Below, piece after piece: positions 19,489-33,076 of a stretch of DNA of 64,000 nt; positions within the stretch are counted from its first letter, which is position 1; every line of letters begins with the position of its first letter. The DNA is from an uncultured delta proteobacterium (GTDB lineage Bacteria > Desulfobacterota > Binatia > JACPRU01), in NCBI GenBank assembly GCA_963745025.1, contig CAVUWD010000014.1:32001-96000 (forward strand). Direction: 5' to 3'. The position numbers and the translations under genes were made by a program. A model generated the notes under the pieces. It did no database searches. It saw only the letters and a program-made list of their open reading frames with translations, and was not told where the DNA came from.

Positions 19489-20705
19489 TTCTTCCGGCCC
19501 TCCAGGATCTCGATGAACCCGTCGATCCGCATCCGGGCGTCGGCCCAGCTGAATCCCTCGGGATCCGCCTGGTCGCCCTCGAAAATCAGCACGGGCAGAT
19601 CGTGTCGCGCCGTGATCAACTCGATGAGCTCCTGCTGGCCCAGGGACATGGGCCGACAGCTCCGGTTCGAGAACATGACGAGCCCGTCCACCGCGTAGTC
19701 CCGGATCGCCTCATCGAAATATTCGAACCGCTTCGCGATCGGCTTGTTGGTGAAGACGTTCGTGTACTTCTCGGCCATCGTGTGGAAGGGCCGGTGGAGA
19801 TCCAGCCGTCCCGTGCTGGTCTTGTTCCCCCAGTTCAGCGAGGTGTACGGCTCCCACACGAAGTTCGCGCCCTTCTCCTCGAAGTAGTCGATGATCTGCA
19901 AGTGGTGCCAGATCGGGATGCCGTTCCAGATCAGACGATATCGCTCGCCATCCCGCGCCGGCGTCTTGCCTTCCTTCGCGTCCTGCACGTACCGCTCATA
20001 CAGTGCCTCGTAGAAGTCGGCCGCGTCCTGCTCGCCCAGCGACGTGACCAGTGGCAGGACCTGGCCGGCGAGCGCCCGGAAGCTGATCGGGGAGGGGCGA
20101 TGCCGCCGCAGCTCCATCATCTGCTTCCAATAGTGGCCGGCACGATCGGAGTTCCCCAATGACTCGTCCAGCCGCTCCCGCTCGAGCCGGCAGGGAGTGG
20201 TGCGCTCGATGAACGTCACCATCTGCCGGATCTGGCTCTCGTAGTAGTCGATGTACTCCGGCGCACCCGGGTCGTCGGTCGACGGCATGTCCATGTAGAA
20301 CGTCGGCAGCGCGAAGTGGTCCTCGAGATAGGACCACCACGTCTGGTGCAGCGAGCACATGTTCACGTCGGTGATGGAGATGGTGGGCTGCGGAATGGGT
20401 CCGAGCGCGGTCTGGCGGGTCCAGCAGATGCCGAGCCCGCACCGCGTGTAGGAGCAGATGGTGCTGGACATCCCGCGGTCCTTCGCCTCGTCGAAGAACG
20501 GCTCCGCCTTGCCGACCCCCGCGGAGATCGCGGCCAGGCTCTCGGGGTAGATGGCGTGCACGCCCATCGCGTGCAGGACCTCGTTGGGGATGCCGGCGCT
20601 CGCCACGCAGACCGGCTGTCCGGCCTCGGCGGCCGCGATCAGCTTCCGGTGGTTCGCCCCAGCCGTCACTCGTCGCTGGATCGCCTTTAGCTCCAGTTCG
20701 GCCAT
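19485..20705 (-). CDS. 2-hydroxyacyl-CoA dehydratase / benzoyl-CoA reductase subunit (HgdA/BcrB/BzdO-like)
   Basis: PNEVLHAMG..YPE, ICSY, NMC, NRSCRP and EGDQAD..RIDGFIE. ATG 20705 preceded by GAGGGAGG. Confidence 0.85.
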   Translation of the reverse strand: MAELELKAIQRRVTAGANHRKLIAAAEAGQPVCVASAGIPNEVLHAMGVHAIYPESLAAISAGVGKAEPFFDEAKDRGMSSTICSYTRCGLGICWTRQTALGPIPQPTISITDVNMCSLHQTWWSYLEDHFALPTFYMDMPSTDDPGAPEYIDYYESQIRQMVTFIERTTPCRLERERLDESLGNSDRAGHYWKQMMELRRHRPSPISFRALAGQVLPLVTSLGEQDAADFYEALYERYVQDAKEGKTPARDGERYRLIWNGIPIWHHLQIIDYFEEKGANFVWEPYTSLNWGNKTSTGRLDLHRPFHTMAEKYTNVFTNKPIAKRFEYFDEAIRDYAVDGLVMFSNRSCRPMSLGQQELIELITARHDLPVLIFEGDQADPEGFSWADARMRIDGFIEILEGRKK

Positions 20706-21079
20706 GCGGTCCTCCCTCGAATCGACTGCGTAACCCAGGTCCGAAACAATCTTCCGCCCTTTGCCCGATCGGTCCGGAGCTCTGACGCCCGGCCGCACTC
20801 CGAACCTCGGCCGGTCAGCCGCGCACGCGGGAGTATAGCAGAAGCGACGGGCGCGCGTAGCACTTCCACACCCGGCCCGGTGGGAGGATGCGCGTGAACG
20901 ACGAGGCACCCGCGCCGAGCCGGCGACGGCGGCCTCGGTTTGCACGGGGGCGCCTCAGACGAGCCGAAGAGTCCCGCCCGCGAGCGTGGCGGTGGTGGCG
21001 GTAGCACACACCGTCGGGAGTGCCGCCGTTACCTTCCCTAGCCCGCCGCCCGGTTGCTATGCTGGCAGGATGACACATG

Positions 21080-21115
21080 GGACGCCGGCACTTCCCCATC
21101 TCTTGCCCCGCTTTG
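21080..21115 (-). repeat. 36-bp imperfect inverted repeat, copy 1 (partner at 31847-31881)
   Basis: Reverse complement CAAAGCGGGGCAAGAGATGGGGAAGTGCCGGCGTCC versus CAAAGCGGGACAGGAGATGGGGAAGTGCCG-CGTCC: two mismatches and one gap. Confidence 0.8.
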
Positions 21116-21242
21116 GCTGATCCAAACTTCGCGATCATCCACGATCGGTCCAATCCTTGTGCACCGGGGCCGGAATCAGACTTCCCCGCAAGAGGGCCGT
21201 TTCAATTCCGGAACTCGCCACGGACAACGCGCATCTACGACC

Positions 21243-22469
21243 ATGGACCGGAAGCTTCGCTGGATAGCTGCCGCGGCGCTGGCCGGCATCGTTGGCTTCG
21301 GCGTTGCCGCGGATGCCCGTGAAGGCGATGCCGCGGCCGAGACCCCCTCGCAGGTTTGCCTCACGCCCGCTGCCTGGACGGTGCCCGACGGCGAGCGGTC
21401 GCACGTCACGAGCGCCAGCGCGTTACTGACGGAGATGGCGAAACGGCAGGTCGTGTTGCTGGGCGAGGACCACGACGAGGATGACCATCACCGCTGGCAG
21501 CTACAGGCGCTTGCCGCGCTGCACGCCCGGCGGCCTGACATGGTCATCGGCTTCGAGATGTTCCCGCGCCGTGTCCAGCCGGTGCTGGACAGCTGGGTGG
21601 CCGGGGATCTCACCGTGCGGCAGTTCCTGGAGCAGTCGGAGTGGCGCAATGTCTGGGACCTTCCGGCCGACCTGTACCTGCCCCTGTTCCAGTTCGCCCG
21701 CATCAACCGCATCCCGATGGTGGCGCTCAACGTCGACGAGAAGCTCAACAAGGCCGTCGCCGCGAAAGGCTGGGATGCCATCCCGGAAAGCGAGCGTGAA
21801 GGCTTGGGCCGTCCCGCGCCGCCGTCCAAGGCCTACCGCGACTACCTTTTCGAGATCTACCGCGAGCACGCCACCGTCGGCGGAAACGATACCACGAAGG
21901 CAGAGGTGACCGACCGCGCCTTCGGCTACTTCGTCGAGGCGCAGACGACGTGGGACCGGGCCATGGCGGAGCCGTTGGCGCGGTACGCCCTTGCAGGCTC
22001 GGGCGGCGGAAAGCCACTGACGGTGGGCATCATGGGCAGCGCCCACATCCGTTTCGGCCACGGCGTGCCGCACCAGCTGCGCGTCTTGGGCGTGAAGAAC
22101 ATCGGTACGCTGCTGCCGCTCCCCTTCGACGCCGATTGCAGCAAGGATCTGCCGACCGGTCTGGCGGATGCAGTATTCGCGTTGCCCCAAGTGGCAACGG
22201 CAAAGCCCGAGCCACCGCGACTTGGCGTCCGATTGGAAGAGAGCGAGGGTGGCGTGCGAATCGTCGACGTCACGGCCGGAAGCCTGGCCGACGAGACCGG
22301 ACTCAAAGTCGGTGACCTTCTCGTGGAGGTCGCTGGCATCGAAGTGAAGCAGCTGACGCCGGTGGTTGCCGCAATCCGGCAGCAGCCTGCGGGCACCTGG
22401 CTGCCGATCCGGGTGAAACGTGGCGACGAAACGTTGGATCTGGTGGTCAAGTTCCGCGCCAAGCCATGA
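21243..22469 (+). CDS. ChaN-family (haem-binding uptake) protein with C-terminal PDZ domain
   Basis: VVLLGEDHD, IGFEMF, AQTTWDRAMAE and GIMGSAH..GHGVP. C-terminal LGVRL...GSLADETGLKVGD PDZ. Signal peptide. Confidence 0.85.
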   Translation: MDRKLRWIAAAALAGIVGFGVAADAREGDAAAETPSQVCLTPAAWTVPDGERSHVTSASALLTEMAKRQVVLLGEDHDEDDHHRWQLQALAALHARRPDMVIGFEMFPRRVQPVLDSWVAGDLTVRQFLEQSEWRNVWDLPADLYLPLFQFARINRIPMVALNVDEKLNKAVAAKGWDAIPESEREGLGRPAPPSKAYRDYLFEIYREHATVGGNDTTKAEVTDRAFGYFVEAQTTWDRAMAEPLARYALAGSGGGKPLTVGIMGSAHIRFGHGVPHQLRVLGVKNIGTLLPLPFDADCSKDLPTGLADAVFALPQVATAKPEPPRLGVRLEESEGGVRIVDVTAGSLADETGLKVGDLLVEVAGIEVKQLTPVVAAIRQQPAGTWLPIRVKRGDETLDLVVKFRAKP

Positions 22470-24514
22470 CGGTCGTGTTCGCCCGCCCGTCCCGCGTGGC
22501 GCTCCTGGCGGTCGTCACGAGCATCGCTTCGACTTCGGTCCGGGCCGCGCCGCCATTCCTCGATCTCGAGGTCGAGCTCGACCCCGGCACGCGCCACTTG
22601 AAGGTTTCGGCACTCGTCGTGCCGGAGTCGCGCGACTTCCGGTTCGCGTTGCACGAATCCCTGCAGGTAACTGCTGCCTCCGCGGACGGCAAGATGCTGC
22701 GCATCGTTTCGACGGGACGCGCGGGGGCGGTTGGCGGCTGGCAGGTGCAGGTGCCGGCAGACTCTGCCGGGCTGCGGCTGGAATATGGCGGTACGCTCCC
22801 GGTACTGGACCGAAATCTCGATGATCGCGGCGTGCTGCGGCGCCTGCCGCCGATGGCGTCGAACGAGGGTAGCTTCCTGCCGGCGGGCGGTGCCTGGTAT
22901 CCGCAGCCGGCGGCACGATTCATCTACCGTGTGAAATTGTCGGTGCCCGCCGATCAACGCGCGCTGGTGCCCGGCCGGCTCGAGTCCGAGGAAGTGCCCA
23001 CCGAGGCTTCGGGACGCTATCGTGCCCGCTTCGAATTCTCGCGGCCCGCCGAGGGCATCGACCTCATGGCCGGGCCCTGGGTCGTTCGCGAGAGGACGAT
23101 GACGCGCGCGAACGACGGGCCGGTGCGGCTGCGCACCTATTTCTTCCGCGACCTCGATGCGACGGCGGGGCTGGCTGACGGTTATCTCGAGGACACGCGC
23201 CGCTACCTCGAACGCTACGGCGGCGAGATCGGCGCCTATCCCTTCACCGAATTCTCCGTCGTCGCGAGCCCGCTCCCCACGGGCTTCGGCATGCCAACGC
23301 TCACCTACATGGGCGCTGATGTGCTGAAGCTGCCCTTCATCCGCGCCACTTCGCTCGGCCACGAGGTGCTGCACAGCTGGTGGGGCAACGGCGTCTACGT
23401 TGACTACGCGCAAGGCAACTGGTCGGAGGGACTGACCACCTTCATGGCCGATTACGCGTACAAAGAGCACGAGTCGGCGGAGGCCGCACGCGAAATGCGG
23501 CAGGGGTGGCTACGGGATTTCGCCGCGGTGCCGCCCGGCGGCCACCAGGCGTTGGCGTCCTTCCGTTCCCGCACCCATGGCGCAGCGGCTGCCGTCGGGT
23601 ACGGCAAGTCGGCCATGCTGTTCGTGATGCTCCGCGATGCCATCGGCGAGGATGCGTTTCGGCGTGGCATTCGCAGGTTCTGGGAGAACCACCGATTCCG
23701 GGCGGCTGCATGGAGCGACCTGCGCGCCCGCTTCGAGGAGGCGTCGGGCAGATCGCTGTTGCCGTTCTTCGACCAGTGGCTCAACCGGTCCGGAGGGCCC
23801 GCGGTGAAGATCGCCACGGCCAGCGCGAAAACGGAGGCGGCCAGAACCCGCCTGACCATGGCCCTCGAGCAGACCGCACCGGCCTACGCGTTGCACGTCC
23901 CGCTGGAAATCGTGTTCCCCGGCCGCACCGAGACGCGCTGGATCGATATCGAACGGCAACGGGACGTAGCGACGATAGACGTGGATGCAATGCCCGAAGG
24001 CGTGCGGCTCGATCCGGAGCTGCGCGTCTGGCGCATGCTGGACCGGGAGCAGCTGCCCCCGATCCTGCGCCAGTGGGTCATTGCTCGCGCGCCCCGGATC
24101 GTGCAGGCCTCGACCGCCGGCGACGTACGCGAGGCGGCGCTGTCGCTGGCGAAACGCTTCTTCGAGGCTCCGCCGCAGGAGGTGCCGCCAGACCAGCTGA
24201 ATCGGGGCCGCGAGCCGGTGTTGCTGATGGGCCTGCATCCGGACGTGGGCGCGGCACTGGCCCGTGCCGGTTTGCCGCGGCAGCCCGCAAATCTGGAGGG
24301 ACGCGGCAGCGCCCAGGTGTGGACCGTCGCGGGCGAGGCAAGCGCACCGGTGGCGGTGATCTCGGTGACGGACGCCGACGCGATGCGGGCGCTCCAGCGC
24401 CCCCTCCCGCATTACGGCGCGCAGAGTTGGCTGGTGTTCGAGGGCGCTCGCATGCTCGAGCGCGGCGTGTGGTCCGCGTCCGGCCGGCTGACCCCAGTGC
24501 ACAGCATTCGTTAG
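22466..24514 (+). CDS. M1 family zinc aminopeptidase-like protein
   Basis: HEVLH-x18-E (HEVLHSWWGNGVYVDYAQGNWSEG) and YGKSAMLFVMLR. ATGA overlap with ChaN. Confidence 0.88.
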   Translation: MTVVFARPSRVALLAVVTSIASTSVRAAPPFLDLEVELDPGTRHLKVSALVVPESRDFRFALHESLQVTAASADGKMLRIVSTGRAGAVGGWQVQVPADSAGLRLEYGGTLPVLDRNLDDRGVLRRLPPMASNEGSFLPAGGAWYPQPAARFIYRVKLSVPADQRALVPGRLESEEVPTEASGRYRARFEFSRPAEGIDLMAGPWVVRERTMTRANDGPVRLRTYFFRDLDATAGLADGYLEDTRRYLERYGGEIGAYPFTEFSVVASPLPTGFGMPTLTYMGADVLKLPFIRATSLGHEVLHSWWGNGVYVDYAQGNWSEGLTTFMADYAYKEHESAEAAREMRQGWLRDFAAVPPGGHQALASFRSRTHGAAAAVGYGKSAMLFVMLRDAIGEDAFRRGIRRFWENHRFRAAAWSDLRARFEEASGRSLLPFFDQWLNRSGGPAVKIATASAKTEAARTRLTMALEQTAPAYALHVPLEIVFPGRTETRWIDIERQRDVATIDVDAMPEGVRLDPELRVWRMLDREQLPPILRQWVIARAPRIVQASTAGDVREAALSLAKRFFEAPPQEVPPDQLNRGREPVLLMGLHPDVGAALARAGLPRQPANLEGRGSAQVWTVAGEASAPVAVISVTDADAMRALQRPLPHYGAQSWLVFEGARMLERGVWSASGRLTPVHSIR

Positions 24515-24777
24515 AGCGATCATTGCCAACGCCAGCATCGACTCCACACGGCTGGGATGAACGGCCGGCGAACGGCGAGCACTGGCCAAGAACGATGGGA
24601 CCTTGCACGGCCGCCTCGGCCGAATCACTCGACTGGCATGCAAGATTTCTCTGGAGTTGTTCCATCGAGTACGACCGCGTAGATCGTCGAGAACTCCATG
24701 TTCATCCGCGGCGACCCACGTGACGTCCGCGCCGCAGGCGAGTACGCTGTTCGCGTGTTGCTGTGGAGGGTTCACGC

Positions 24778-25791
24778 ATGCCTGCCAATCTCTCGCCCGA
24801 CTACAAGGCCGCGGAGGCCAACTTCCGCAAGGCGCGCGACCCGCAGGAGCGCCTCGAGTGGCTGCGGGAGATGCTGCGCGTCATTCCCAAGCACAAGGGT
24901 ACGGATCACCTGCAGGGCGACATCAAGAGCAAGATCCGGCAGTTGTCCGAGGAGCTGGAGGCGCACAGGAAAGGCGCGACGCGCGGCGGCCCCAGCATCG
25001 TCACGCACCCAGAAGGCGCCGCCCAGCTCGCGTTGATCGGCCCGCCCAACTCGGGCAAGTCTTCGCTCCACGCGAGGCTGACAGGATCGAATGCACACGT
25101 GGCGCCCTATCCCTTCACCACCCAGTTCCCCGAGCCGGGGATGATGCCGTACCAGGATATCCACTTTCAGCTCGTCGATCTGCCGGCGATCTCGCCCGAA
25201 CATCCGGTGGCGTGGATTGCCGACGCTGTGCAGACGGCAGATGGGTGCCTGCTGGTGGTCGATCTGAGCGACGCCGATTGTGTCGACCAGGTGCAGGCGC
25301 TGCACCTGGTGCTCGCAGCGCGGCATGTCACGCTGAGCGAGCACTGGGCCCCGGACGAAGAGGCTCCGGACACCGAGACAGACGTCTTCCGAGTGCGTCT
25401 GCCGACGCTGCTGGTGGACAACAAATGCGACCGGGAAACGGAGCCGGAGGAAGACCTCGAGGTATTTCGCGAGTTGACCGGGTTGCGTTATCCCGCGCTG
25501 GCCGTATCGGCCGTCACCGGACACGGCCTCGGCGAGCTGGGGGCCTTCCTGTTTCGCAACTTACGTATCGTGCGCGTTTATACCAAGACGCCGGGGCATG
25601 CCGTCGATCGCCAGCGCCCGTTCACGCTGCGGCAGGGGCAGACCATCGAGCACGTGGCGCGCCTGGTGCACAAAGATCTCCTGAACACCCTGCGCTATGC
25701 CCGCGTGTGGGGAAAGTCGGGGTTCGATGGTCAGCACGTGGGAGGCGAGCATCGCGTCGAAGATGGGGACGTGATCGAGCTTCACAGCTGA
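24778..25791 (+). CDS. OBG/DRG-like GTPase with TGS domain
   Basis: MPANL start, PKHKGTDHL, G1 GPPNSGKS, YPFTT, DLP, NKCD, and C-terminal TGS (YARVWG...DGDVIELH). Confidence 0.9.
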   Translation: MPANLSPDYKAAEANFRKARDPQERLEWLREMLRVIPKHKGTDHLQGDIKSKIRQLSEELEAHRKGATRGGPSIVTHPEGAAQLALIGPPNSGKSSLHARLTGSNAHVAPYPFTTQFPEPGMMPYQDIHFQLVDLPAISPEHPVAWIADAVQTADGCLLVVDLSDADCVDQVQALHLVLAARHVTLSEHWAPDEEAPDTETDVFRVRLPTLLVDNKCDRETEPEEDLEVFRELTGLRYPALAVSAVTGHGLGELGAFLFRNLRIVRVYTKTPGHAVDRQRPFTLRQGQTIEHVARLVHKDLLNTLRYARVWGKSGFDGQHVGGEHRVEDGDVIELHS

Positions 25792-25839: not shown

Positions 25840-26055
25840 GCGGGAGTTTCTGAGGGCGTGGTTCTGATGACCGGCGGTTGGAAGACGCGGCCGATCTTCG
25901 AGCGCTACAACATCAAGAGCGAAGACAAACTGCGCGACGCCGCTGCCGCGGTTGCCGTTTGCGCCCTTGGGAAAGAATCGAGAAAACAGCTCGCACGAAA
26001 CCCATCGGGAAGACTTGGAGGTCTCGCGATACACCGTGACTTCCAGTTTTTTTGA
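25840..26055 (+). pseudogene. Tyrosine integrase C-terminal remnant
   Basis: AGVSEGVVLMTGGWKTRPIFERYNIKSEDKLRDAA resembles the box II/catalytic-Tyr end of phage integrases. No N-terminal part; its stop lies inside the att repeat. Confidence 0.75.
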
Positions 26056-26108
26056 GTGCCGGAAGGGGGACTCGAACCCCCACGGCCTTGCGACCACCGG
26101 ATTTTGAG
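26053..26108 (-). repeat. att site: duplicated 3' half of tRNA-Leu(CAA)
   Basis: TGAGTGCCGGAAGGGGGACTCGAACCCCCACGGCCTTGCGACCACCGGATTTTGAG matches 31398-31454 except one fewer G. Identity ends in the anticodon loop. Confidence 0.93.
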
Positions 26109-26714
26109 ATCTGGATAATATCGAGCAGTACGGTCAAATCCGAAGGAACTCAAGGCCCTTGGCGGGTTCGAGCCGTAGCCGTCCGTACCTGCCCAGCACG
26201 GAAATGGGTCGGAAATGGGTCTGTCTAATCGCGCGGCGCTGAGTCCCGCGAGCCTTCCTCGAAGCTGCAAATGGCGGTGCGCTCGGGCCCCCTGGGAAAC
26301 CCCTACGGGGTGCGCCACCCGCGGGTACGCTGCCGTACTGTGCCGTCGCCCTGTTGGGCAGAGGTTGGGCGCGCCCTCGTGCGTCTTGACAACACTCTCG
26401 GCGCGGGCAAACGTCTTCACTGATGAGCTGAAGAGGTCCGTCGTCGGCGCTGTTCCAGCGGATCGAAGGAGATGGAAGGGTCTCGAGGATAAAAAGAATT
26501 ACTTCAAGTTGCAACAGGCGGTTCGTGTCCACTGTGCCGCATCCGGCATTGGCGAACATGTCACGTGGGCCCCACCGAAGACGCAGCCAGCATGCACAGC
26601 CGACGGCCTGCTCTACGAACGCGAGAACGGCAAGAATCGAGTGACACCGATGCAATCCCATCGCAGGTGACAGACGCCGGGGAGACCATCGTCGAAAGGG
26701 AAAGGGCGTACATC

Positions 26715-27345
26715 ATGGCAAAAGATTCCAAATCGGTAACAGCAACAAATCCCGAAGGAGCCAACGGAGAGAAGTCCCTTTCCGTGGCCGACCTGGGCAT
26801 GGGCGATGCCCGCGGCGTGGACAAGATCCGCGATCTCCTGTTCGGAAACCAGATGCAGGATTACGATCGCCGGTTCTCGATGCTCGCGGAAGGCTTCCAT
26901 CAGAAGCTGCGAGACGTGGAGTCCGAGACCGCTCGGAGCCTGAGTAGCCTAGAGGCCAACCTCAAGAAGCAGCTCGACTCGATCGCGGGCCAGGTTCGGG
27001 AAGAGAAGGATCTGCGAACCGACGCGGACAAGGAGCTCGATCACAAACCTGCGCGAGTCGAGCCAGGCGCTGGAGAAGCGCATCGGACAGCTGTCCGACC
27101 AACTCGCGTGCCTGGAGCGGGACATGAACGATCGCGTCAGCCACGATGTCCAGGGCTTGCGTGAAGAGATCAAGCGCCGGAGCGACGACGCGCGTGCCAC
27201 CCTCGATCGGATGTTCGCCGAGCTTCGCGACGTGAAAACGGACCGGAGCCTGCTTGCCGGCTTATTCGTGGAAGTCGCGCGCTGCTTGAACCAGGAGCTG
27301 CCTCCGTCGCTCGCGACCAAGAGCGGAGGCGGCGAGCGGAGCTGA
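26715..27345 (+). CDS. Coiled-coil hypothetical protein, split by a single frameshift near 27045
   Basis: GVDKIRDLLFGNQMQDYDRRF followed by heptad-rich sequence. Removing one A in CACAAACCTG joins ORF 26565-27164 to the frame ending at 27345 (...NLRESSQALEKRIGQL...DRSLLAGLFVEVA). Confidence 0.7.
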
Positions 27346-27369
27346 ACCGCGCCGCGCAGGGCGCCGGTC

Positions 27370-29211
27370 ATGTCGGATTCCCCGCCGCTTCGCAGGCCGG
27401 GTTCGGACGTCAACGGGCAGACGCCGAACCCTGATCGGCTCGCCAACCTCTTGATCGGGATCGCACGGTACGTCGATCCCGCGACCGCTCCGAGCATCCC
27501 GGCGCCGAGCGGCGATCCGAGTCTCGACGCGGTCCGGCACATCCTGCTCGACCGGGAGCTGCAAGTTCTCGCCCGGCTTCGGAGGACGCTCGACGAGCCC
27601 GAGCGCTTGGCCGCGGCCGTCGGTGACGTCCTGTCGCTGGCCGTTCAGCGGGCCGCGGCGCGCGACGGGCGGTTGGGTGAGGTGCTCACCCCGGCGGTCG
27701 AGCGCGCCGCGCAATGCTCGATCAAGAAGGACCCGCGGACGTTCATAGGCATCTTCTCTCCGCTGATGGGCGCCACCATCCGCAAGTCGATCGCGGAGGC
27801 TCTGGAGAGCACGCTCCAATCCCTCAATCAGGCGCTCAAGCACAGCCTGTCGTGGCGAGGGCTCATGTGGCGGATCGAGGCGCGTCGCGCCGGCACGACG
27901 TTCGCGGACGTGGTGCTCCGGCACACGCTCGTCTACCGCGTCGAGCACCTCTTCCTGATCCACAAGGAGAGCGGCCTCCTCATCAGCCACGTCGCGGCGG
28001 ACGACGCCGCGAGCGAGGACCCGCAGCTCGTCTCGGGAATGCTCAGCGCCATCCAGGACTTCGTCCGGGACTCTTTCGGTCGCGCCGACGCCACCGGCCT
28101 CGACACCCTGCGTCTGGGTGATCGGGTCCTGTGGTGCGAGCAAGGCGCGCTCGCTTTTCTCGCGGCCGTCATTCGCGGCACGCCGCCCGAAACGCTCCAC
28201 GTCACTCTCCGCGAGACGTTGGCGAGCATCCACGACGAGTGGCGCGCCCCACTCGCGGACTTCGCCGGCGACGATGCGGACTTCGCCGGCGTCGCCGAAC
28301 GCCTGCGGACGTCTCTGCAAGCGCAGGCGAGCGCCCCCGAAAAGCGCCTGTCGCCTCTCCTCTGGGTGCTGCCCCTGTTGTTGGTCGCCCTCGGCGGCTA
28401 CTGGCTGTACGAGCGACACGAAGCCCGGCGGCGGTTCGACCGGTACGTCGCGCAGCTCGAAGCCGAGCCTGGGATCGTCGTAACCAGCGCCGGAAGGCGC
28501 GGCGGCGTCTGGCAGGTGACCGGCATGCGGGACCCGTTGTCGCCCGACCCGACGACGCTGCTGGCCGCGGCCGACCTGGCACCGGCCGAGGTCGATGGAC
28601 ATTGGCAGCCGTATCTCGCGCTCGACCCGGCCCTAGCGCTCAAGAGGTTCCAGACGAGCCTGCAGCCGCCGCCGACCGTCTCCCTCGCGCTCGAGGATGG
28701 CACGGTACGGGCGCACGGGTCTGCGCCGCACCATTGGATCGAGCGGGCACGCGCCCTCGTTCGCACGTTGCCACCCGGATCCCCCGGGCTCGATCTGGCG
28801 AGCCTCGAGGATCCCGAGATGGCGGAATACGAGCGCGTACGCAGCGCCGTCCAATCCCACGTGATCTACTTCGATCACAACGTCCCGAAGCCGGCGAGCG
28901 GCCAGGAGGCCGAGATCGACGCTCTGGCTGGCGAGCTGCTCGAGCTCGAGCGGGTGGTGCGCGAGATGCGCGTCTCCGCGCGCGTGACGATTGCAGGCCA
29001 TGCCGATTCCACGGGCAAGGACACGCCGAACCTCGCCCTCAGCATGGGGCGAGCGGAGGTCGTTCGCTCCATGCTGAGGGCGCGTGGCGTCGATCCCGAC
29101 CTGTTGGCGGTCCGGGGCGCGGGGCCGCTCGAGCCCTTGAAGCCAGAGACGACCGAAGAGGATCGTTCCATCAATCGACGCGTGTCGTTCACCGTCGGCA
29201 TCGGAGAGTGA
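27370..29211 (+). CDS. Single-pass membrane protein with C-terminal OmpA-like peptidoglycan-binding domain
   Basis: TM helix LLWVLPLLLVALGGYWLY, then IAGHADSTG...NLALSMGRAEVV...NRRVSF. Large N-terminal cytoplasmic region. Confidence 0.88.
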   Translation: MSDSPPLRRPGSDVNGQTPNPDRLANLLIGIARYVDPATAPSIPAPSGDPSLDAVRHILLDRELQVLARLRRTLDEPERLAAAVGDVLSLAVQRAAARDGRLGEVLTPAVERAAQCSIKKDPRTFIGIFSPLMGATIRKSIAEALESTLQSLNQALKHSLSWRGLMWRIEARRAGTTFADVVLRHTLVYRVEHLFLIHKESGLLISHVAADDAASEDPQLVSGMLSAIQDFVRDSFGRADATGLDTLRLGDRVLWCEQGALAFLAAVIRGTPPETLHVTLRETLASIHDEWRAPLADFAGDDADFAGVAERLRTSLQAQASAPEKRLSPLLWVLPLLLVALGGYWLYERHEARRRFDRYVAQLEAEPGIVVTSAGRRGGVWQVTGMRDPLSPDPTTLLAAADLAPAEVDGHWQPYLALDPALALKRFQTSLQPPPTVSLALEDGTVRAHGSAPHHWIERARALVRTLPPGSPGLDLASLEDPEMAEYERVRSAVQSHVIYFDHNVPKPASGQEAEIDALAGELLELERVVREMRVSARVTIAGHADSTGKDTPNLALSMGRAEVVRSMLRARGVDPDLLAVRGAGPLEPLKPETTEEDRSINRRVSFTVGIGE

Positions 29212-29720
29212 TGCAGCAGAAGAAGATCTGCATGCTAGGTGCGTTCGCCGTGGGCAAGACGAGTCTCGTGCGCCGCTACGTCGACAGCATCTTCTCGGAC
29301 ACCTACCTCACGACGGTAGGGGTTAAGATCGACAAGCGCGTGGTCACGGTCGGCGACGACACGCTGAACCTGATTCTCTGGGACATCGCCGGCGAGGACG
29401 ATGTGTCTTCCGTCCGGATGAGCTATCTCCGCGGCGCGAGCGGCTATTTCCTGGTGGTGGACGGGACACGTGCCGCGACGCTCGACGTCGCGCGTTCCAT
29501 CCAGCAGCGCGCCGAAAGCGAGATCGGCAGCGTGCCGTTCATCGCCCTCGTCAACAAGCTCGACGTACGCGACGAGTGGGCCGTCACGCAGGAAAGCCTG
29601 GCCGAGCTCGAAGACGCCGGGTGGTCGGTGGCGCTGACCAGCGCCCGAACCGGCGAAGGCGTCGAAGTGGCGTTCCGCACCCTCGCCGAACGCATGCTCC
29701 GGCCGAACCCGGCGACGTGA
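29211..29720 (+). CDS. Stand-alone Ras/Rab-like small GTPase
   Basis: G1 GAFAVGKT, G2 YLTTVG, G3 WDIAGE, G4 NKLD, G5 SAR; 169 aa. TGATG overlap with the OmpA gene. Confidence 0.92.
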   Translation: MQQKKICMLGAFAVGKTSLVRRYVDSIFSDTYLTTVGVKIDKRVVTVGDDTLNLILWDIAGEDDVSSVRMSYLRGASGYFLVVDGTRAATLDVARSIQQRAESEIGSVPFIALVNKLDVRDEWAVTQESLAELEDAGWSVALTSARTGEGVEVAFRTLAERMLRPNPAT

Positions 29721-31159
29721 TAAACCTGCCCGGCAGCCTGAGGGAAGCGCTGCTCGGCCGCGTATGCGCCGAGCACGAGCCCACGTATCTCCTGCTCGAT
29801 TCCAGCTACCGAGTCGCCCGGGTGGGCGCCGACATGGAGCGTTACGGCCTGAACGAGCTCCGGATCGGCGAACCCGCCAACACGCAGGTGCGGTTCCTCG
29901 AAGGCCTGCTTCCGCCACGAGACCTGCCGTTCACACTACCTGCCGTGGAGATGCCCTCCGGTCGCGTCGCCGACGTGCTGCTGCACGGCGACGTCGACGG
30001 CCTCTGGGTGGTCCTCTTGGACGTGACCGGCGAAATCGAACAGGCCAGGCTCTTACAGCAAAAGGCATACGACATCATGCTGCGGAGCGAGCGCGCGGCG
30101 CGGCGCGGAGAAGCCTGGCCCGCCGCAGCTACCGATTATCTCAATCGGCTGCTGCAAGAGCAATTTCGCCCGGCCTTTCTGCAAGTCGATGTGGACGGCA
30201 ACGTGATGGCGGCTGGCGGCGCGCTCGAGCTGTACGGACTTTCGGTGGTCCAGGTGGGCGCGTCCATCGTTGACTACCTGCCCCTCCTGATGGGCCTCTT
30301 GCCGCTGCAAGCGCCGGGCGATCCGTTCGTAATCCCCTGGGTCAACATCGACGGCGGCGGCTATATGGATGTCCACCTCGTTCCCGGCGACGGCTCCGAC
30401 TTCGTAATCTGCGTCGAGGCCCTCGTCGAAAGGCAGGAGCGCGTGGCATGGCAGCAGAAGGGAAACGAGCTCGCCCTGACCAAGCACAAGCAGGCGCAGC
30501 TGCTCGAATCTCACGTGGGAAAGTACGTTGCCGAAGAGCTGCTGCGGGGTGGTTTGGTGCCGGACGAGGAAGGCGAGCGGTGCGAGGCCTCGCTTCTCTT
30601 CTGTGACATTCGCGGTTTTACCACCTTCGCCGAGCGGCAGCCACCGCAGGTGGTCTTCCAGACGCTGAATCAGCTTCTCCAGGCCATGGTTCAGCCCATC
30701 CTCGATCACGGTGGCTGGCTCGACAAGATGGCCGGAGACGCCGTGTTTGGCGCGTTCGGTCTCATTCCCTACCAGCGACCTGACGGAGACGAACTGAAGA
30801 CCACAGCGCCGATTCGCGCGCTGCTCGCCGCGCAGGCCATCATGCGCGGGCTGCGCGACTGGAACGACGAGCGGCGGCGTAGCGGAGCCGAGGCGCTGCA
30901 CGCCGGAATCGGGATCAGCACTGGAGCAGTCGCGGTCGGAGTTCTTGGCACGCGTGAGCGGCGGCAGTTCACGATCATCGGCCACCACGTCAACCTCGCG
31001 GCGCGGCTGCAGACACAGGCGCTGGCCGGCGAGATCATCATTGATACGTCGACCCACGAGGCGCTTGGCGAGCTCGCGCAGGGCTTTAAGCCGCGACCGC
31101 TTCGTCTCAAAGGCCTGCAGGACCTCGTGACTGCCTACGTACTCGCCGCGGATTTGTAG
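29717..31159 (+). CDS. Class III adenylate/guanylate cyclase with duplicated N-terminal PAS-like module
   Basis: LFCDIRGFT, DKMAGDA, GIGISTG and FTIIGHHVNLAARLQ. GTGA overlap with the GTPase. Confidence 0.9.
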   Translation: MINLPGSLREALLGRVCAEHEPTYLLLDSSYRVARVGADMERYGLNELRIGEPANTQVRFLEGLLPPRDLPFTLPAVEMPSGRVADVLLHGDVDGLWVVLLDVTGEIEQARLLQQKAYDIMLRSERAARRGEAWPAAATDYLNRLLQEQFRPAFLQVDVDGNVMAAGGALELYGLSVVQVGASIVDYLPLLMGLLPLQAPGDPFVIPWVNIDGGGYMDVHLVPGDGSDFVICVEALVERQERVAWQQKGNELALTKHKQAQLLESHVGKYVAEELLRGGLVPDEEGERCEASLLFCDIRGFTTFAERQPPQVVFQTLNQLLQAMVQPILDHGGWLDKMAGDAVFGAFGLIPYQRPDGDELKTTAPIRALLAAQAIMRGLRDWNDERRRSGAEALHAGIGISTGAVAVGVLGTRERRQFTIIGHHVNLAARLQTQALAGEIIIDTSTHEALGELAQGFKPRPLRLKGLQDLVTAYVLAADL

Positions 31160-31246
31160 ACGCCGCTTCGCCGACGTTGCTGTACAGTGGGCGATGCGAC
31201 AGCGTGATCGGCATCCCCGAATCGACTTCCTCGATCGCGCGCGGCG

Positions 31247-31330
31247 GTTGAAAACGGCTACCTGCAGCTAAGCGAGCAGGGCCTTCGCGAGGCGGCCGAG
31301 AGAGTAGCTAGCGCCTCTGTTGGTAGCGTC
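31247..31330 (+). pseudogene. Possible highly eroded integrase C-terminal remnant
   Basis: VENGYLQLSEQGLREAAERVA resembles the catalytic-Tyr helix of tyrosine integrases and points toward the tRNA 3' end, like the remnant at 25840. Confidence 0.4.
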
Positions 31331-31401
31331 GGGCAAAACGGCCGATGTAGTGCCACCCCTAAGAGATCCTCGGCGGGCGACGTACCCCGGAACTACGTGA
31401 G

Positions 31402-31486
31402 TGCCGGAAGGGGGGACTCGAACCCCCACGGCCTTGCGACCACCGGATTTTGAGTCCGGCGCGTCTACCAGTTCCGCCATTCCGGC
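31402..31486 (-). tRNA. tRNA-Leu (anticodon CAA)
   Basis: GCCGGAATGGCGGAACTGGTAGACGCGCCGGACTCAAAATCCGGTGGTCGCAAGGCCGTGGGGGTTCGAGTCCCCCCTTCCGGCA: acceptor stem, D loop, CCGGA-CTCAAAA-TCCGG anticodon arm, long variable arm, GTTCGA T loop. CCA is not encoded. Confidence 0.97.
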
Positions 31487-31559
31487 CTAGTTTGCGGGTA
31501 TCAGCGAAGCTCTTGAGATTCAAGGTGATTCTTGCCGGGGTACGCGGCACATTGCGGTG

Positions 31560-31739
31560 CTACAGCGCGGATTTCGTGACGTTCATCCCCTCAACTCGGG
31601 CTTTTGCCCCCTTATCTCGGGCGGCAGCTACCTGCGCTGCGGCATTCCGCAGATCATCCTCGTTCTTGATGTCGTAGCGGTCGAACATCTAGTGCGTCCT
31701 CCATCCGCAGATCTGCATCACGATCCCTTCTGGCACGCC
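31560..31739 (-). pseudogene. Second tyrosine integrase C-terminal remnant with internal stop
   Basis: GVPEGIVMQICGWRTH*MFDRYDIKNEDDLRNAAAQ (TAG at 31689-31691), clearly related to the 25840 remnant. Confidence 0.75.
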
Positions 31740-31846
31740 GCGCCGCCATCTCATTCTGCCTCGTCGCCGGGGCTGCTCCTTCCGCTCGTCGCGAGTCAAT
31801 GTAGAGATCCATCCGCGGGTCCGTCACGGCACACCGGCATCGCCGT

Positions 31847-32869: not shown

Positions 32870-33076
32870 CAAGATCGACTGATCGTCCGGCAGCGACTTC
32901 CCGCCGCCCGCACGCGACCCGCGCGCCTACACGCCGAAGCACCTTGCCGAGAAGATTCTGCCATCCAAGCGACCAACTCGACCCGCGCCATCGCGCGGGA
33001 CAACGTGGCAGTCCAACGAGCCGCTCTGCTATGCTGCGGTCGCGGCTTTCGTCATGGTTGCGGCAATCCGGGAGGG

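What the first reader, a model, noticed from the sequence alone, without database searches (positions are those of the whole stretch)
26715..31159. Island-borne four-gene module resembling a bacterial receptor - small G protein - adenylate cyclase pathway
Seen: the whole recognisable cargo of the island is one operon-like run: coiled-coil protein, TM/OmpA protein, Rab-like GTPase (G1-G5 intact) and class III cyclase. The last three overlap by TGATG and GTGA. The cyclase keeps both metal Asp residues, the N/R pair and Lys/Thr at the purine-selecting positions, which favours ATP. Knowledge: stand-alone non-MglA Ras-superfamily GTPases in bacteria (the Rup group) are known from genomics but, to my knowledge, lack a demonstrated pathway. 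Inference: the OmpA domain anchors to or senses peptidoglycan, its cytoplasmic part controls the GTPase nucleotide state, and the GTP-bound form regulates cAMP output, with the coiled-coil protein as scaffold or polar localiser. This is the best candidate for an undescribed system in the window.
Basis: partly seen in the sequence, partly recalled or inferred. Interest (0 to 1): 0.85.

Follow-up and report, generated by a model that had tools for sequence, protein, structure and literature searches.

The report
Bacterial Rab-like GTPase signalling operon
This four-gene operon is a member of a bacterial small-GTPase signalling module first described from genomes in 2014 and, in the papers searched, not yet tested in the lab; here it ends in a cAMP-making enzyme.

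Summary
The four genes are real and lie where stated: a coiled-coil protein, a membrane protein with an OmpA domain, a Rab-like GTPase and a class III cyclase. The TGATG and GTGA overlaps are present.

The module is not undescribed. It matches the 'Group 1 Rup' four-gene neighbourhood of Wuichet & Søgaard-Andersen 2014 (PMC4316618), including the missing G3 glutamine and an invariant glutamine in the output protein's N-terminal region. I found no experimental study.

In 80 related loci the first three genes and the output's N-domain stay together while the output varies: PP2C 33, cyclase 32, histidine kinase 5, HD 1 of 76.

New here, all from prediction:
- The OmpA protein's 'unknown' cytoplasmic domain has a longin fold (Z 13.2).
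- The output N-domain has a PAS fold.
- It is predicted to dock on the GTPase's switch I and P-loop through the invariant Gln-Gln pair (ipSAE 0.90, best control 0.00).

Specific to this window:
- A 1-nt frameshift in gene 1.
- A tandem duplication of the PAS-like domain.
- A position between a tRNA-Leu and a 44-nt copy of its 3' part, with integrase remnants.

Verdict: a member of a known but uncharacterised kind.

The parts
25840..25971 (+). Remnant of the C-terminal 44 residues of a tyrosine integrase, left of the tRNA fragment
   Evidence: tblastn with the intact integrase of the same-genus genome G001 (Pfam Phage_integrase 7.3e-20): 59% identity over 44 aa, E 2.8e-6.
26065..26108 (.). Direct-repeat copy of the 3' part of tRNA-Leu (att-like, left boundary)
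   Evidence: Perfect 44-nt repeat with 31411-31454. 52 nt are identical to the tRNA-Leu of G001.
26715..27345 (+). Gene 1, conserved coiled-coil protein, broken by a +1 frameshift at about 27048 (frame 0 to 27047, +1 frame from 27049)
   Evidence: The two halves are in one frame in 68 of 69 related loci. Contigs of 2 public runs that bridge 27048 lack the extra base. No Pfam family except a weak apolipoprotein-like hit.
27370..29211 (+). Gene 2, 613-aa inner-membrane protein: helical N-part, longin-fold domain, one TM segment, conserved periplasmic region, OmpA-like domain
27934..28335 (+). Longin-fold cytoplasmic domain of gene 2 (residues ~189-322)
   Evidence: AF2 pLDDT 70-84 in this part. 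VIA-align: Z 13.2, rmsd 2.8, 124 aa to Sec22 longin; the 50 rows are almost all longin, roadblock or related GTPase-platform chains. Foldseek: LAMTOR, MglB, Mon1-Ccz1 at E 3e-4 to 1e-3.
28348..28410 (+). Single transmembrane segment of gene 2 (residues ~327-347)
   Evidence: Highest Kyte-Doolittle 19-residue window, 1.72.
28912..29178 (+). OmpA-like peptidoglycan-binding domain of gene 2 (residues 515-603)
   Evidence: Pfam PF00691, E 6.4e-12, 46.1 bits against a cut-off of 27.2. NCBIfam OmpA/Pal/MotB-type hits.
29211..29720 (+). Gene 3, Rab-like small GTPase of the Rup group 1 type (169 aa)
   Evidence: Pfam Ras 2.8e-27. Best PDB relatives are Rab23 and Rab1. G1 GAFAVGKT, G2 T35, G3 WDIAGE (no Gln), G4 NKLD, G5 SAR. 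58-91% identical in the 80 loci kept.
29717..31159 (+). Gene 4, output protein: two PAS-like Rup-associated N-domains followed by a class III adenylate cyclase domain (480 aa)
29717..30121 (+). N-domain copy A (residues 1-135), the canonical copy, with the invariant Gln114-Gln115
   Evidence: 40-50% identical to the single N-domain of homologues. AF2 pLDDT 90.9. PAS fold. Predicted to bind the GTPase. Absent from the closest relative L002.
30164..30511 (+). N-domain copy B (residues ~150-265), divergent, keeps Gln-Gln-Lys
   Evidence: 26% identical to copy A, E 1e-6; 30-38% identical to homologues' N-domains.
30584..31144 (+). Class III nucleotide cyclase catalytic domain (residues 290-476)
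   Evidence: Pfam PF00211, 2.4e-17. Best PDB match 2w01, 1.2e-24. Catalytic residues present, with Lys and Thr at the base-selecting positions.
31244..31342 (+). Remnant of an integrase C-terminal tail next to the intact tRNA
   Evidence: tblastn: 59% identity over 34 aa, E 4e-4. DNA alignment with the G001 site.
31401..31486 (-). tRNA-Leu(CAA), intact; holds the right repeat copy at 31411-31454
   Evidence: ARAGORN, Rfam RF00005 54.2 bits, repeat.

Best explanation
This is a member of the 'Group 1 Rup' (Rup1) small-GTPase signalling system, with a class III adenylate cyclase as its output.

Proposed working, with the basis marked:
1. Gene 2 is an inner-membrane protein. Its periplasmic OmpA-like domain holds on to peptidoglycan, and its cytoplasmic longin-fold domain is the platform that sets the nucleotide state of the Rab-like GTPase, as a GEF or a GAP. 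The domains rest on Pfam matches and on predicted folds. The activity is inferred from what longin and roadblock domains do elsewhere.
2. The GTP form of the GTPase binds the PAS-like N-domain of the output protein through switch I, switch II and the P-loop. This is predicted, not measured.
3. The invariant Gln-Gln pair sits at the start of the helix that follows the PAS core, against switch I and the P-loop. The GTPase itself has Glu where Ras and Rab proteins have the catalytic Gln. The pair may therefore act as a glutamine finger supplied in trans, so that the effector would also switch the signal off. This is inference, and it is the 2014 authors' speculation.
4. Binding is passed through the helix to the dimeric cyclase domain and changes cAMP synthesis. 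This is inference.
5. The conserved coiled-coil protein is a scaffold or a further regulator. This is inference only.

In this genome the module sits in a decayed integrative island at tRNA-Leu. Gene 1 carries a 1-nt frameshift that may be an assembly error.
For: Match to the published description (PMC4316618, sections 16-18 read):
- A coiled-coil protein, an unknown-domain + TM + OmpA protein, a Rup GTPase without the G3 Gln, and an output protein whose N-region has an invariant Gln.
- Each point was found here.

Conservation:
- 418 of 600 candidate stretches in GTDB species genomes encode a relative.
- 70 of 72 loci with enough upstream DNA have the coiled-coil and OmpA-protein genes in order.
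- 69 of 76 with enough downstream DNA have the N-domain right after the GTPase.
- 62 of 69 testable on both sides have all four.

Outputs vary behind a constant N-domain:
- SpoIIE/PP2C 33, Guanylate_cyc 32, HATPase_c 5 and HD 1 of 76.
- In a profile search of 1.84 billion representatives, 1024 hits at E<=1e-3 and 756 at E<=1e-10, nearly all with the domain at the N-terminus.
- Of the 94 of the best 150 that are >=280 aa: HATPase_c 30, Guanylate_cyc 26, SpoIIE 8, sigma-54 activator 2.

Folds:
- Longin: Z 13.2, rmsd 2.8, 124 aa. Foldseek hits to LAMTOR, MglB and Mon1-Ccz1.
- PAS: Foldseek E 1e-4. Z 9.9, rmsd 2.4, 84 aa to PYP, with PAS-type rows throughout.

Predicted binding of the GTPase (+GTP, Mg) to the N-domain:
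- ipSAE 0.90 in 3 of 3 runs; the best of 3 controls was 0.00.
- The mark was reached by 58 of 80 solved complexes and 2 of 110 mismatched pairs in the tool's calibration.
- The runs agree in >=98% of contacts, and the partner's pLDDT is >=89.
- The least-error contacts are GTPase T34 with Q114 and Q115. GTPase residues 12-13, 32-40 and 69-76 lie in the interface.

Cyclase:
- The catalytic residues are present.
- They are conserved in the 32 cyclase-type outputs: Asp 31/32, Asp 32/32, Asn 32/32, Arg 31/32, Lys 25 or Arg 7.
Against: - I found no experiment on any member of the family.
- The AF2 model of the OmpA protein's N-part is poor overall: mean pLDDT 55.8, pTM 0.40. Only residues ~189-300 reach 70-84.
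- The complex job used my own alignments and carried ligands, unlike the tool's calibration, so its counts hold only roughly.
- The Gln-Gln pair lies just after the DVT motif that ends the PAS-like core (that such a motif is typical of PAS domains is recalled). It could be structural or a plain effector contact rather than catalytic.
- Gene 1 is frameshifted here, so the module may be impaired in this organism.
- The direction of signal flow and the stimulus are unknown.
- The two N-domain copies make it unclear which one binds the GTPase.
Confidence: 0.6

Rival explanations
1. The module is an anti-phage or other conflict system carried on a mobile island. The cyclase would make a nucleotide alarm signal, as in Pycsar or CBASS, after the GTPase senses infection.
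For: - It lies between tRNA-derived direct repeats with integrase remnants.
- Its distribution is patchy: 3 of 31 related genomes, G000 included, and not found in the same-genus genome G001, which is 82% complete.
- The GTPase is 60-69% identical across phyla, which fits horizontal spread.
- PADLOC gives PycC hits, best 5.2e-21.
Against: - The PADLOC hits are to the generic class III cyclase and MotB/OmpA folds. No defence-specific component matched the GTPase.
- There is no effector gene with a nucleotide-binding domain in the module or beside it.
- The alternative outputs are ordinary regulatory enzymes: PP2C phosphatases, histidine kinases and sigma-54 activators.
- The base-selecting residues are Lys/Thr here and Lys/Asp in most relatives. 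These are the purine (ATP) type, by recalled knowledge of class III cyclases.
Confidence: 0.07
2. The PAS-like N-domain is only the GTPase's off-switch (a GAP), or only a tether. The GTPase's real target would be elsewhere, for example envelope or polarity machinery as with MglA, and the fused enzyme would be regulated by other inputs.
For: - The GTPase lacks its own catalytic Gln, and the N-domain's invariant Gln pair is predicted at switch I and the P-loop. That is what a GAP would look like.
- The OmpA-type anchor and the coiled-coil partner recall envelope-spanning machines.
Against: - The N-domain is nearly always fused directly, through a long helix, to a signalling enzyme.
- Per the recalled textbook model for PAS-linked sensors, such a domain controls the enzyme joined to it.
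- No other conserved neighbour was seen beyond the four genes.
Confidence: 0.15
3. In this particular genome the module is a decaying remnant. The coiled-coil gene is broken and the island has lost its integrase, so the pathway no longer works here.
For: - A 1-nt insertion at about 27048 splits gene 1.
- 68 of 69 related loci keep one frame.
- Integrase genes are reduced to fragments.
Against: - Genes 2-4 are intact and keep their translational overlaps.
- Two contigs from two studies of near-identical environmental DNA lack the extra base. The genome is a draft of 20 contigs with 7.6% contamination. An assembly error is therefore at least as likely.
- The other locus with a shifted frame (L079) is also a metagenome-assembled genome.
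Confidence: 0.15

Closest known systems
Group 1 Rup (Rup1) GTPase neighbourhood, Wuichet & Søgaard-Andersen, Genome Biol Evol 2014 (PMC4316618; sections 16-18 read)
   Same: - The same four components in the same roles: a coiled-coil cytoplasmic protein, a conserved unknown domain + TM + OmpA protein, a Ras-like GTPase with eukaryote-like G motifs but no G3 Gln, and an output protein whose N-region has an invariant Gln.
- The same hypothesis of a membrane-linked signalling complex.
   Different: - The paper's text names GGDEF/EAL proteins and histidine kinases as the typical outputs. Here the output is a class III cyclase. In my samples cyclases and PP2C phosphatases are the commonest outputs.
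- The paper calls the gene-2 domain and the output N-region unknown. Here they are predicted to have longin and PAS folds.
- This copy has a duplicated N-domain and a frameshifted gene 1.
Actinobacterial conservon (CvnA-D); as described in PMC4316618 section 18
   Same: A membrane sensor, a roadblock/longin-superfamily protein and a small GTPase encoded together. It has been proposed to work like a receptor-G-protein system.
   Different: - The conservon GTPase is of the MglA family, its sensor is a histidine kinase, and the roadblock protein is a separate small protein.
- There is no OmpA anchor, no coiled-coil gene and no PAS-fused output.
- The GTPase here is Rab-like.
MglA-MglB of Myxococcus and Thermus (solved complexes 3t12, 6h5b, listed)
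   Same: A bacterial Ras-superfamily GTPase regulated by a roadblock/longin-superfamily partner. MglB appears among the fold matches (Z 8.7; E 6e-4).
   Different: - MglB is a soluble homodimeric GAP, and MglA controls cell polarity. This is recalled, and matches the abstracts listed.
- Here the domain is fused to a TM and an OmpA anchor and scores higher against eukaryotic longins (Z 11-13) than against roadblocks (Z 8-9).
Eukaryotic Rab with longin-domain GEFs (Mon1-Ccz1, TRAPP, DENN, CPLANE) and TBC-type GAPs
   Same: - A Rab-like GTPase (best PDB hit Rab23) paired with a longin-fold protein. CPLANE Z 12.8, Mon1-Ccz1 Z 10.6, TRAPP subunits Z 10-11.
- A partner that may supply a Gln in trans. 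That TBC GAPs do so is recalled knowledge.
   Different: - No sequence similarity of the partners (one search found nothing).
- No lipid-anchor motif was looked for.
- The putative Gln donor is a PAS fold, not a TBC domain.
- The output is a second-messenger enzyme, not vesicle traffic.
PAS-regulated class III cyclases, e.g. the phytochrome-linked cyclase 6fht
   Same: A sensor domain, a long helix and a class III cyclase. 6fht is the second-best sequence match of the catalytic domain (5.9e-24), and its PAS part is a fold match (Z 7.8).
   Different: Here the proposed 'ligand' of the PAS-like domain is a protein, the GTPase, not a cofactor or a small molecule. No Pfam PAS model matches it.

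Membership tests
Group 1 Rup system (PMC4316618) | Single-domain Ras-superfamily GTPase with eukaryote-like G1-G5 motifs | tested here: met
   Pfam Ras 2.8e-27. G1, G2, G4 and G5 are invariant or nearly so in 53 sequences. Rab23 is the best PDB relative.
Group 1 Rup system (PMC4316618) | No catalytic Gln in G3 | tested here: met
   WDIAGE: Glu62 at that position, at least 90% Glu in alignment A5.
Group 1 Rup system (PMC4316618) | Neighbouring gene for a coiled-coil cytoplasmic protein | tested here: met
   Present upstream and conserved in 70 of 72 testable loci. In the window it is split by a 1-nt frameshift. The coiled-coil character itself was judged from the sequence and a weak apolipoprotein-like hit only.
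Group 1 Rup system (PMC4316618) | Neighbouring gene: conserved domain + inner-membrane helix + C-terminal OmpA domain | tested here: met
   Pfam OmpA 6.4e-12. One hydrophobic segment. The N-part is conserved at 33-87% identity in 51 sequences.
Group 1 Rup system (PMC4316618) | Output protein whose N-terminal region has an invariant Gln | tested here: met
   Q114 and Q115 are invariant in 61 sequences. One Gln is invariant and the next is at >=90% in 94 distant representatives.
Group 1 Rup system (PMC4316618) | Falls in the Rup1 clade in a tree with the published reference sequences | not tested
   I held no named Rup1 reference sequence, and supplementary table S2 was closed.
Class III adenylate cyclase | Two metal-binding Asp, transition-state Asn and Arg, and Lys plus Asp/Thr at the base-selecting positions | tested here: met
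   Alignment to 2w01 and 6fht. Column counts in 32 cyclase outputs. The meaning of the positions is recalled knowledge.
Class III adenylate cyclase | Makes cAMP | not testable with these tools
   Needs an enzyme assay or cya- complementation.
Longin / roadblock superfamily | Beta-beta-alpha-beta-beta-beta-alpha fold | tested here: met
   Predicted elements E189-198, E204-209, H218-236, E246-270 and H275-296. Z 13.2, rmsd 2.8, 124 aa. Foldseek E 3e-4. This is a prediction of moderate confidence.
Longin / roadblock superfamily | Binds and regulates a small GTPase | not tested
PAS domain | Five-stranded antiparallel sheet with flanking helices, followed by a signalling helix | tested here: met
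   AF2 pLDDT 90.9. Foldseek to FlrB and VC2136 PAS at E 1e-4. VIA Z 9.9-7.3, with PAS-type rows throughout.
PAS domain | Match to a Pfam PAS model | tested here: not met
   No Pfam hit on residues 1-289 of the window protein. The assignment rests on fold only.
Pycsar (cyclase + effector defence system) | Cyclase next to an effector with a cyclic-nucleotide-binding domain | tested here: not met
   No such gene among the module or the flanking ORFs scanned. The PycC hits are to the shared cyclase fold.
tRNA-integrated genomic island | Flanking direct repeats derived from the tRNA 3' part | tested here: met
   Perfect 44-nt repeat 5346 nt apart.
tRNA-integrated genomic island | Integrase gene | tested here: not met
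   Only fragments remain, at 25840-25971, 31244-31342 and 31644-31833. None was found in the relative L002 either, in 9 ORFs scanned.
tRNA-integrated genomic island | Absent from the same site in a close relative | tested here: inconclusive
   G001 (same genus, 82% complete) has no GTPase match. Its tRNA-Leu is next to an intact integrase. Flanking synteny is otherwise not kept. G006 has the module near the same tRNA.

The most novel reading that the evidence does not exclude
The Rup1 operon is a bacterial, operon-encoded counterpart of the eukaryotic Rab cycle.
- A membrane-anchored longin-domain protein acts as the exchange factor.
- A PAS-fold domain serves at once as effector and as a trans-glutamine GAP.
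- This GTPase-reading PAS module has been fused again and again to cyclases, PP2C phosphatases, histidine kinases and sigma-54 activators.

If true, it would be a one-to-one GTPase-longin-effector set in culturable bacteria (Variovorax, Mesorhizobium). It would also bear on where the Rab-longin partnership arose.
Probability: 0.3. Interest if true: 0.8.

Novelty: new member of a known kind. Interest (0 to 1): 0.5.

Why it matters
No Rup GTPase pathway has been shown to work. The 2014 paper says none had been characterised, and my searches found nothing later.

The family is large: 756 representative clusters of the output N-domain at E<=1e-10. It occurs in easily grown soil bacteria.

The predictions made here turn a gene-neighbourhood observation into specific experiments:
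- Which domain binds the GTPase.
- Which two glutamines to mutate.
- Which domain to test for exchange activity.
- cAMP as a simple read-out.

A Rab-like GTPase encoded beside its own longin-fold partner is also of interest for the evolution of small-GTPase regulation. In Asgard archaea such pairs are generally not in operons (passage seen in PMC10933270).

Tried and rejected
- Sequence searches of the two unknown domains against PDB sequences gave nothing usable. The A4 profile had two hits at E 0.45 and 0.84. The A3 profile had none.
- Pfam and NCBIfam gave no family for gene 1, for the N-part of gene 2 or for the N-part of gene 4.
- The ESM Atlas placed the intact coiled-coil protein of L002 only among unnamed 'hypothetical protein' clusters. 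The nearest named one, SF-assemblin at 0.77, is below the level worth trusting.
- The promoter and terminator scan of 26000-31500 found 0 promoter-like sites and 3 terminator-like sites against 3.0 expected, so it was uninformative.
- Base composition does not mark the module. GC is 0.60-0.70 across it against about 0.67 in the window, with dips only at 25-27 kb and 30-32 kb.
- A simple 'empty site' comparison with the same-genus genome failed. The left flank, the tRNA and the right flank lie on three different contigs of G001.
- I looked for an integrase between the cyclase and the tRNA in L002 and found none. A sulfatase fragment and an ion-channel domain lie there instead.
- Public runs: no run held half or more of the sampled words. 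The best held 0.44, so the source strain itself was not seen.
- Run X2 covered only the conserved 26801-26872 stretch, and the X5 contig ended at 27048. Neither bears on the frameshift.
- The defence reading was considered and ranked low.
- The idea that the hydrophobic stretch at residue ~177 of the cyclase is a TM segment was dropped. It lies inside PAS-like copy B.
- Supplementary table S2 of PMC4316618 could not be seen. It may list cyclase outputs and reference accessions.

Full report
**What is there**

The window is about 67% G+C. On the + strand between 26715 and 31159 lie four genes.
- Gene 2 (27370-29211, 613 aa) ends in an OmpA domain: Pfam E 6.4e-12, residues 515-603. NCBIfam gives OmpA/Pal/MotB-type hits. 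It has one strongly hydrophobic segment at residues ~327-347.
- Gene 3 (29211-29720, 169 aa) is a Ras-superfamily GTPase (Pfam Ras 2.8e-27, Roc 3.3e-21). Its best solved relatives are Rabs: Rab23 at 7.6e-23, Rab1, and a Thorarchaeota Rab.
- Gene 4 (29717-31159, 480 aa) ends in a class III cyclase domain (PF00211, 2.4e-17, residues 290-476).
- The cyclase has both metal Asp, Lys in the DKxxGD motif, Thr in FTIIG, and Asn and Arg in VNLAARL.
- In the best structural relative, 2w01, the Lys position is Glu. In the engineered adenylate cyclase 6fht it is Lys (alignment). This fits an ATP preference. What these positions mean is recalled knowledge.

**Three corrections to the observation**

1. Gene 1 is not one open frame. 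The frame that starts at 26715 stops at 27164, while the conserved C-terminal half is in the +1 frame and ends at 27345.
   - Against the closest relative (L002, 87% DNA identity) the window has one extra base at about 27048.
   - The two halves are in one frame in 68 of 69 related loci that have both (the exception is L079).
   - Contigs from two public soil runs of two studies that bridge the site lack the extra base, each at depth about 4.
   - The break is therefore either private to this strain or an assembly error. The genome is a 20-contig draft, 92.65% complete with 7.6% contamination.
2. G3 of the GTPase is WDIAGE, with Glu where Ras and Rab proteins carry the catalytic Gln. That position is Glu in at least 90% of 53 aligned relatives.
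3. The cyclase has two tandem copies of an N-terminal domain: A at residues 1-~130 and B at ~150-265. They are 26% identical to each other (E 1e-6), and both match the single N-domain of homologues.
   - The closest relative L002 lacks copy A; window 29735-30092 has no counterpart there.
   - A 79%-identical metagenomic protein (P0001) has both copies.
   - A distant one (P0003, 30% identity, 488 aa) also has two copies plus a cyclase.
   - Loss of copy A in L002 is therefore the simpler reading.

**It is a described system**

Wuichet & Søgaard-Andersen (Genome Biol Evol 2014, PMC4316618; sections 16, 17 and 18 read in full) defined the Rup family. For its Group 1 they described a conserved neighbourhood of three further genes:
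- a coiled-coil cytoplasmic protein;
- a signal-transduction output protein, 'typically' a GGDEF/EAL protein or a histidine kinase, whose N-terminal region has an invariant glutamine.

They noted that Group 1 Rup GTPases lack the G3 glutamine. They speculated that it is supplied in trans, and they proposed a membrane-linked signalling complex like the actinobacterial conservon. They stated that no Rup member had been characterised experimentally.

Every one of these features is met here (see the membership test). The one test I could not make is a tree with their reference sequences, because their supplementary table was closed.

My literature searches (listings and abstracts only, unless stated) found no later functional study. 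A 2024 preprint (10.1101/2024.02.28.582541, passages seen) uses 'Rup1' only as a phylogenetic group nested with Asgard RasL and eukaryotic Rab/Ras/Rho/Ran.

**Neighbourhood survey**

Of these, 418 encode a relative. The best 80 were kept, at 58-91% identity to the window's GTPase.
- They come from Alpha-, Beta-, Gamma- and Deltaproteobacteria, Acidobacteriota, a cyanobacterium, Meiothermus and others.
- With tblastn of the window's proteins:
  - 70 of 72 loci with at least 2.7 kb upstream have the coiled-coil and OmpA-protein genes in order. The exceptions are L030 and L072.
  - 69 of 76 with at least 500 nt downstream have the N-domain within 200 nt after the GTPase.
  - 62 of 69 testable on both sides have all four.
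- The seven without a detectable N-domain still have a downstream signalling gene in six cases. It is a histidine kinase or an HD protein with a different N-terminus.
- Pfam on the window's output protein plus those of 75 loci gave SpoIIE/PP2C 33, Guanylate_cyc 32, HATPase_c 5 and HD 1. Five loci whose downstream ORF was missing or under 190 aa were dropped.
- A profile of the N-domain against 1.84 billion representatives found 1024 proteins at E<=1e-3, 756 at E<=1e-10 and 88 at E<=1e-30. The match is nearly always at residues ~3-135.
- Of the 94 of the best 150 that are at least 280 aa long: HATPase_c 30, Guanylate_cyc 26, SpoIIE 8, sigma-54 activator 2.

So the first three genes and the N-domain are the constant core, and the enzyme behind the N-domain is interchangeable. 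A cyclase is one of the commonest choices, not a rarity.

**What the two 'unknown' domains look like**

The output N-domain:
- Copy A with 60 homologues folds confidently: pLDDT 90.9, pTM 0.76. It forms an N-terminal helix, five strands with short helices, and a long C-terminal helix.
- Foldseek's best hits are the PAS-like domains of the histidine kinases VC2136 and FlrB (E 1e-4, TM about 0.5), then phytochrome PAS and LOV domains.
- An independent all-against-all structural search gives Z 9.9 (rmsd 2.4, 84 aa) to photoactive yellow protein, with PAS-type domains through rank 50 (Z 7.3).
- The Z values are middling, but the list is uniform.
- The invariant residues are G37, G44, G63, L65, Q114, Q115 and L122. 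The Gln pair opens the helix right after a DVT motif.

The N-part of gene 2:
- It folds poorly overall (mean pLDDT 55.8, pTM 0.40). Residues ~189-300 reach 70-84 and form a beta-beta-alpha-beta-beta-beta-alpha unit.
- That unit matches longin domains:
  - Sec22 Z 13.2 (rmsd 2.8, 124 aa) and VAMP7 Z 12.9;
  - the CPLANE complex Z 12.8;
  - AP sigma and mu subunits about Z 12;
  - TRAPP subunits Z 10-11 and Mon1-Ccz1 Z 10.6.
- It matches roadblock proteins more weakly (MglB Z 8.7). The 50 listed rows are almost all longin, roadblock or related GTPase-platform chains.
- Foldseek agrees: LAMTOR 3.3e-4, MglB 6.1e-4, Mon1-Ccz1 6.1e-4.
- Longin and roadblock domains are the common platform of small-GTPase GEFs and some GAPs (abstract of PMC3747258; passages of PMC10933270).

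**Predicted contact**

The single complex job was given the GTPase (53-row alignment), GTP, Mg and N-domain copy A (61-row alignment).
- ipSAE was 0.90 in each of three runs. The best of three controls scored 0.00.
- In the tool's calibration the mark was reached by 58 of 80 solved complexes and 2 of 110 mismatched pairs.
- The runs agree in at least 98% of contacts, and the partner's pLDDT is at least 89.
- The tool warns that my alignments and the ligands make the calibration only roughly applicable, and that a pass supports binding but does not show it.
- The interface uses GTPase residues 3-5, 12-13 (P-loop), 32-40 (switch I and the following strand) and 55-76 (switch II region).
- On the N-domain it uses 55-64, 72-78 and the helix at 107-129. 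The least-error pairs are T34 with Q115 and T34 with Q114.
- Residue 12 is Phe in at least 90% of relatives and touches the N-domain helix.
- This is what one expects of an effector that reads the GTP state. It is compatible with, but does not prove, a glutamine supplied in trans.

**Genomic setting**

- A tRNA-Leu(CAA) lies 240 nt downstream of the cyclase, on the other strand (31401-31486).
- A perfect 44-nt copy of its 3' part lies at 26065-26108, 5346 nt to the left. The module is therefore bracketed by att-like repeats.
- Fragments of tyrosine-integrase genes lie at 25840-25971, 31244-31342 and, on the minus strand, 31644-31833. They were recognised with the intact integrase that sits beside the tRNA-Leu of the same-genus genome G001.
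- The GTPase was found in 3 of 31 related genomes, G000 included. It was not found in G001 (82% complete). It was found in one other family member, G006, which holds it near the same tRNA.
- Flanking synteny with G001 is broken, so a clean empty site could not be shown.
- I read this as a decayed integrative island at a tRNA hot spot.
- PADLOC models hit only the generic cyclase (PycC, 5.2e-21) and MotB-like (ZorB) folds. No effector gene is present. With PP2C, kinase and sigma-54 outputs elsewhere, a regulatory role is far more likely than a defence role.

**Verdict**

The window holds an ordinary member of the Rup1 system with one of its common outputs.

- a longin fold for the membrane protein's cytoplasmic domain;
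- a PAS fold for the output N-domain;
- a specific, strongly scored GTPase-N-domain interface centred on the invariant Gln pair.

All three are directly testable in culturable bacteria.

I put about 0.9 on membership of the Rup1 system. I put about 0.5-0.6 on the envelope-anchored longin protein, to GTPase, to PAS-cyclase mechanism as stated.

Noticed in passing
window 32899-32969: A short sequence with dozens of 74-97% identical copies scattered over the genomes G001 and G006. It looks like a REP-type interspersed repeat.
   Followed up: no
window 31644-31833 (minus strand): Two further integrase fragments to the right of tRNA-Leu, an N-terminal piece and a C-terminal piece with an in-frame stop. 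The tRNA appears to be a repeatedly used integration site.
   Followed up: partly
window 26814-26878: The stretch that encodes the N-terminal motif of the coiled-coil protein is covered by many contigs of other organisms in all four runs laid. It is almost invariant in the protein alignment. It is the most conserved part of gene 1 and has no known function.
   Followed up: partly
window 27370-27930 and 28411-28910: The helical N-terminal ~185 residues of gene 2 are conserved but were modelled with low confidence. The periplasmic region between the TM segment and the OmpA domain is conserved at 30-88% identity in relatives and was not modelled at all. The latter could be the sensing part.
   Followed up: no
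L072 10093-12202: In this Terriglobia MAG the coiled-coil and OmpA-protein genes lie about 4 kb downstream of the GTPase rather than upstream. This could be a second or a rearranged module.
   Followed up: no
window 24763-25791: An Obg/DRG-type GTPase gene (MMR_HSR1 + TGS) lies just left of the island. It is unrelated to the module. Its counterpart in G001 is on another contig.
   Followed up: no
window 19485-24514: Flanking genes: a 2-hydroxyglutaryl-CoA dehydratase D-component, a ChaN/Tiki haem-binding protein with a PDZ domain, and an M1 peptidase.
   Followed up: no
L002 7620-11900: In the closest relative, 4.3 kb separate the cyclase from the tRNA-Leu. This stretch holds a sulfatase fragment and an ion-channel domain gene and is absent from the window.
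   Followed up: partly
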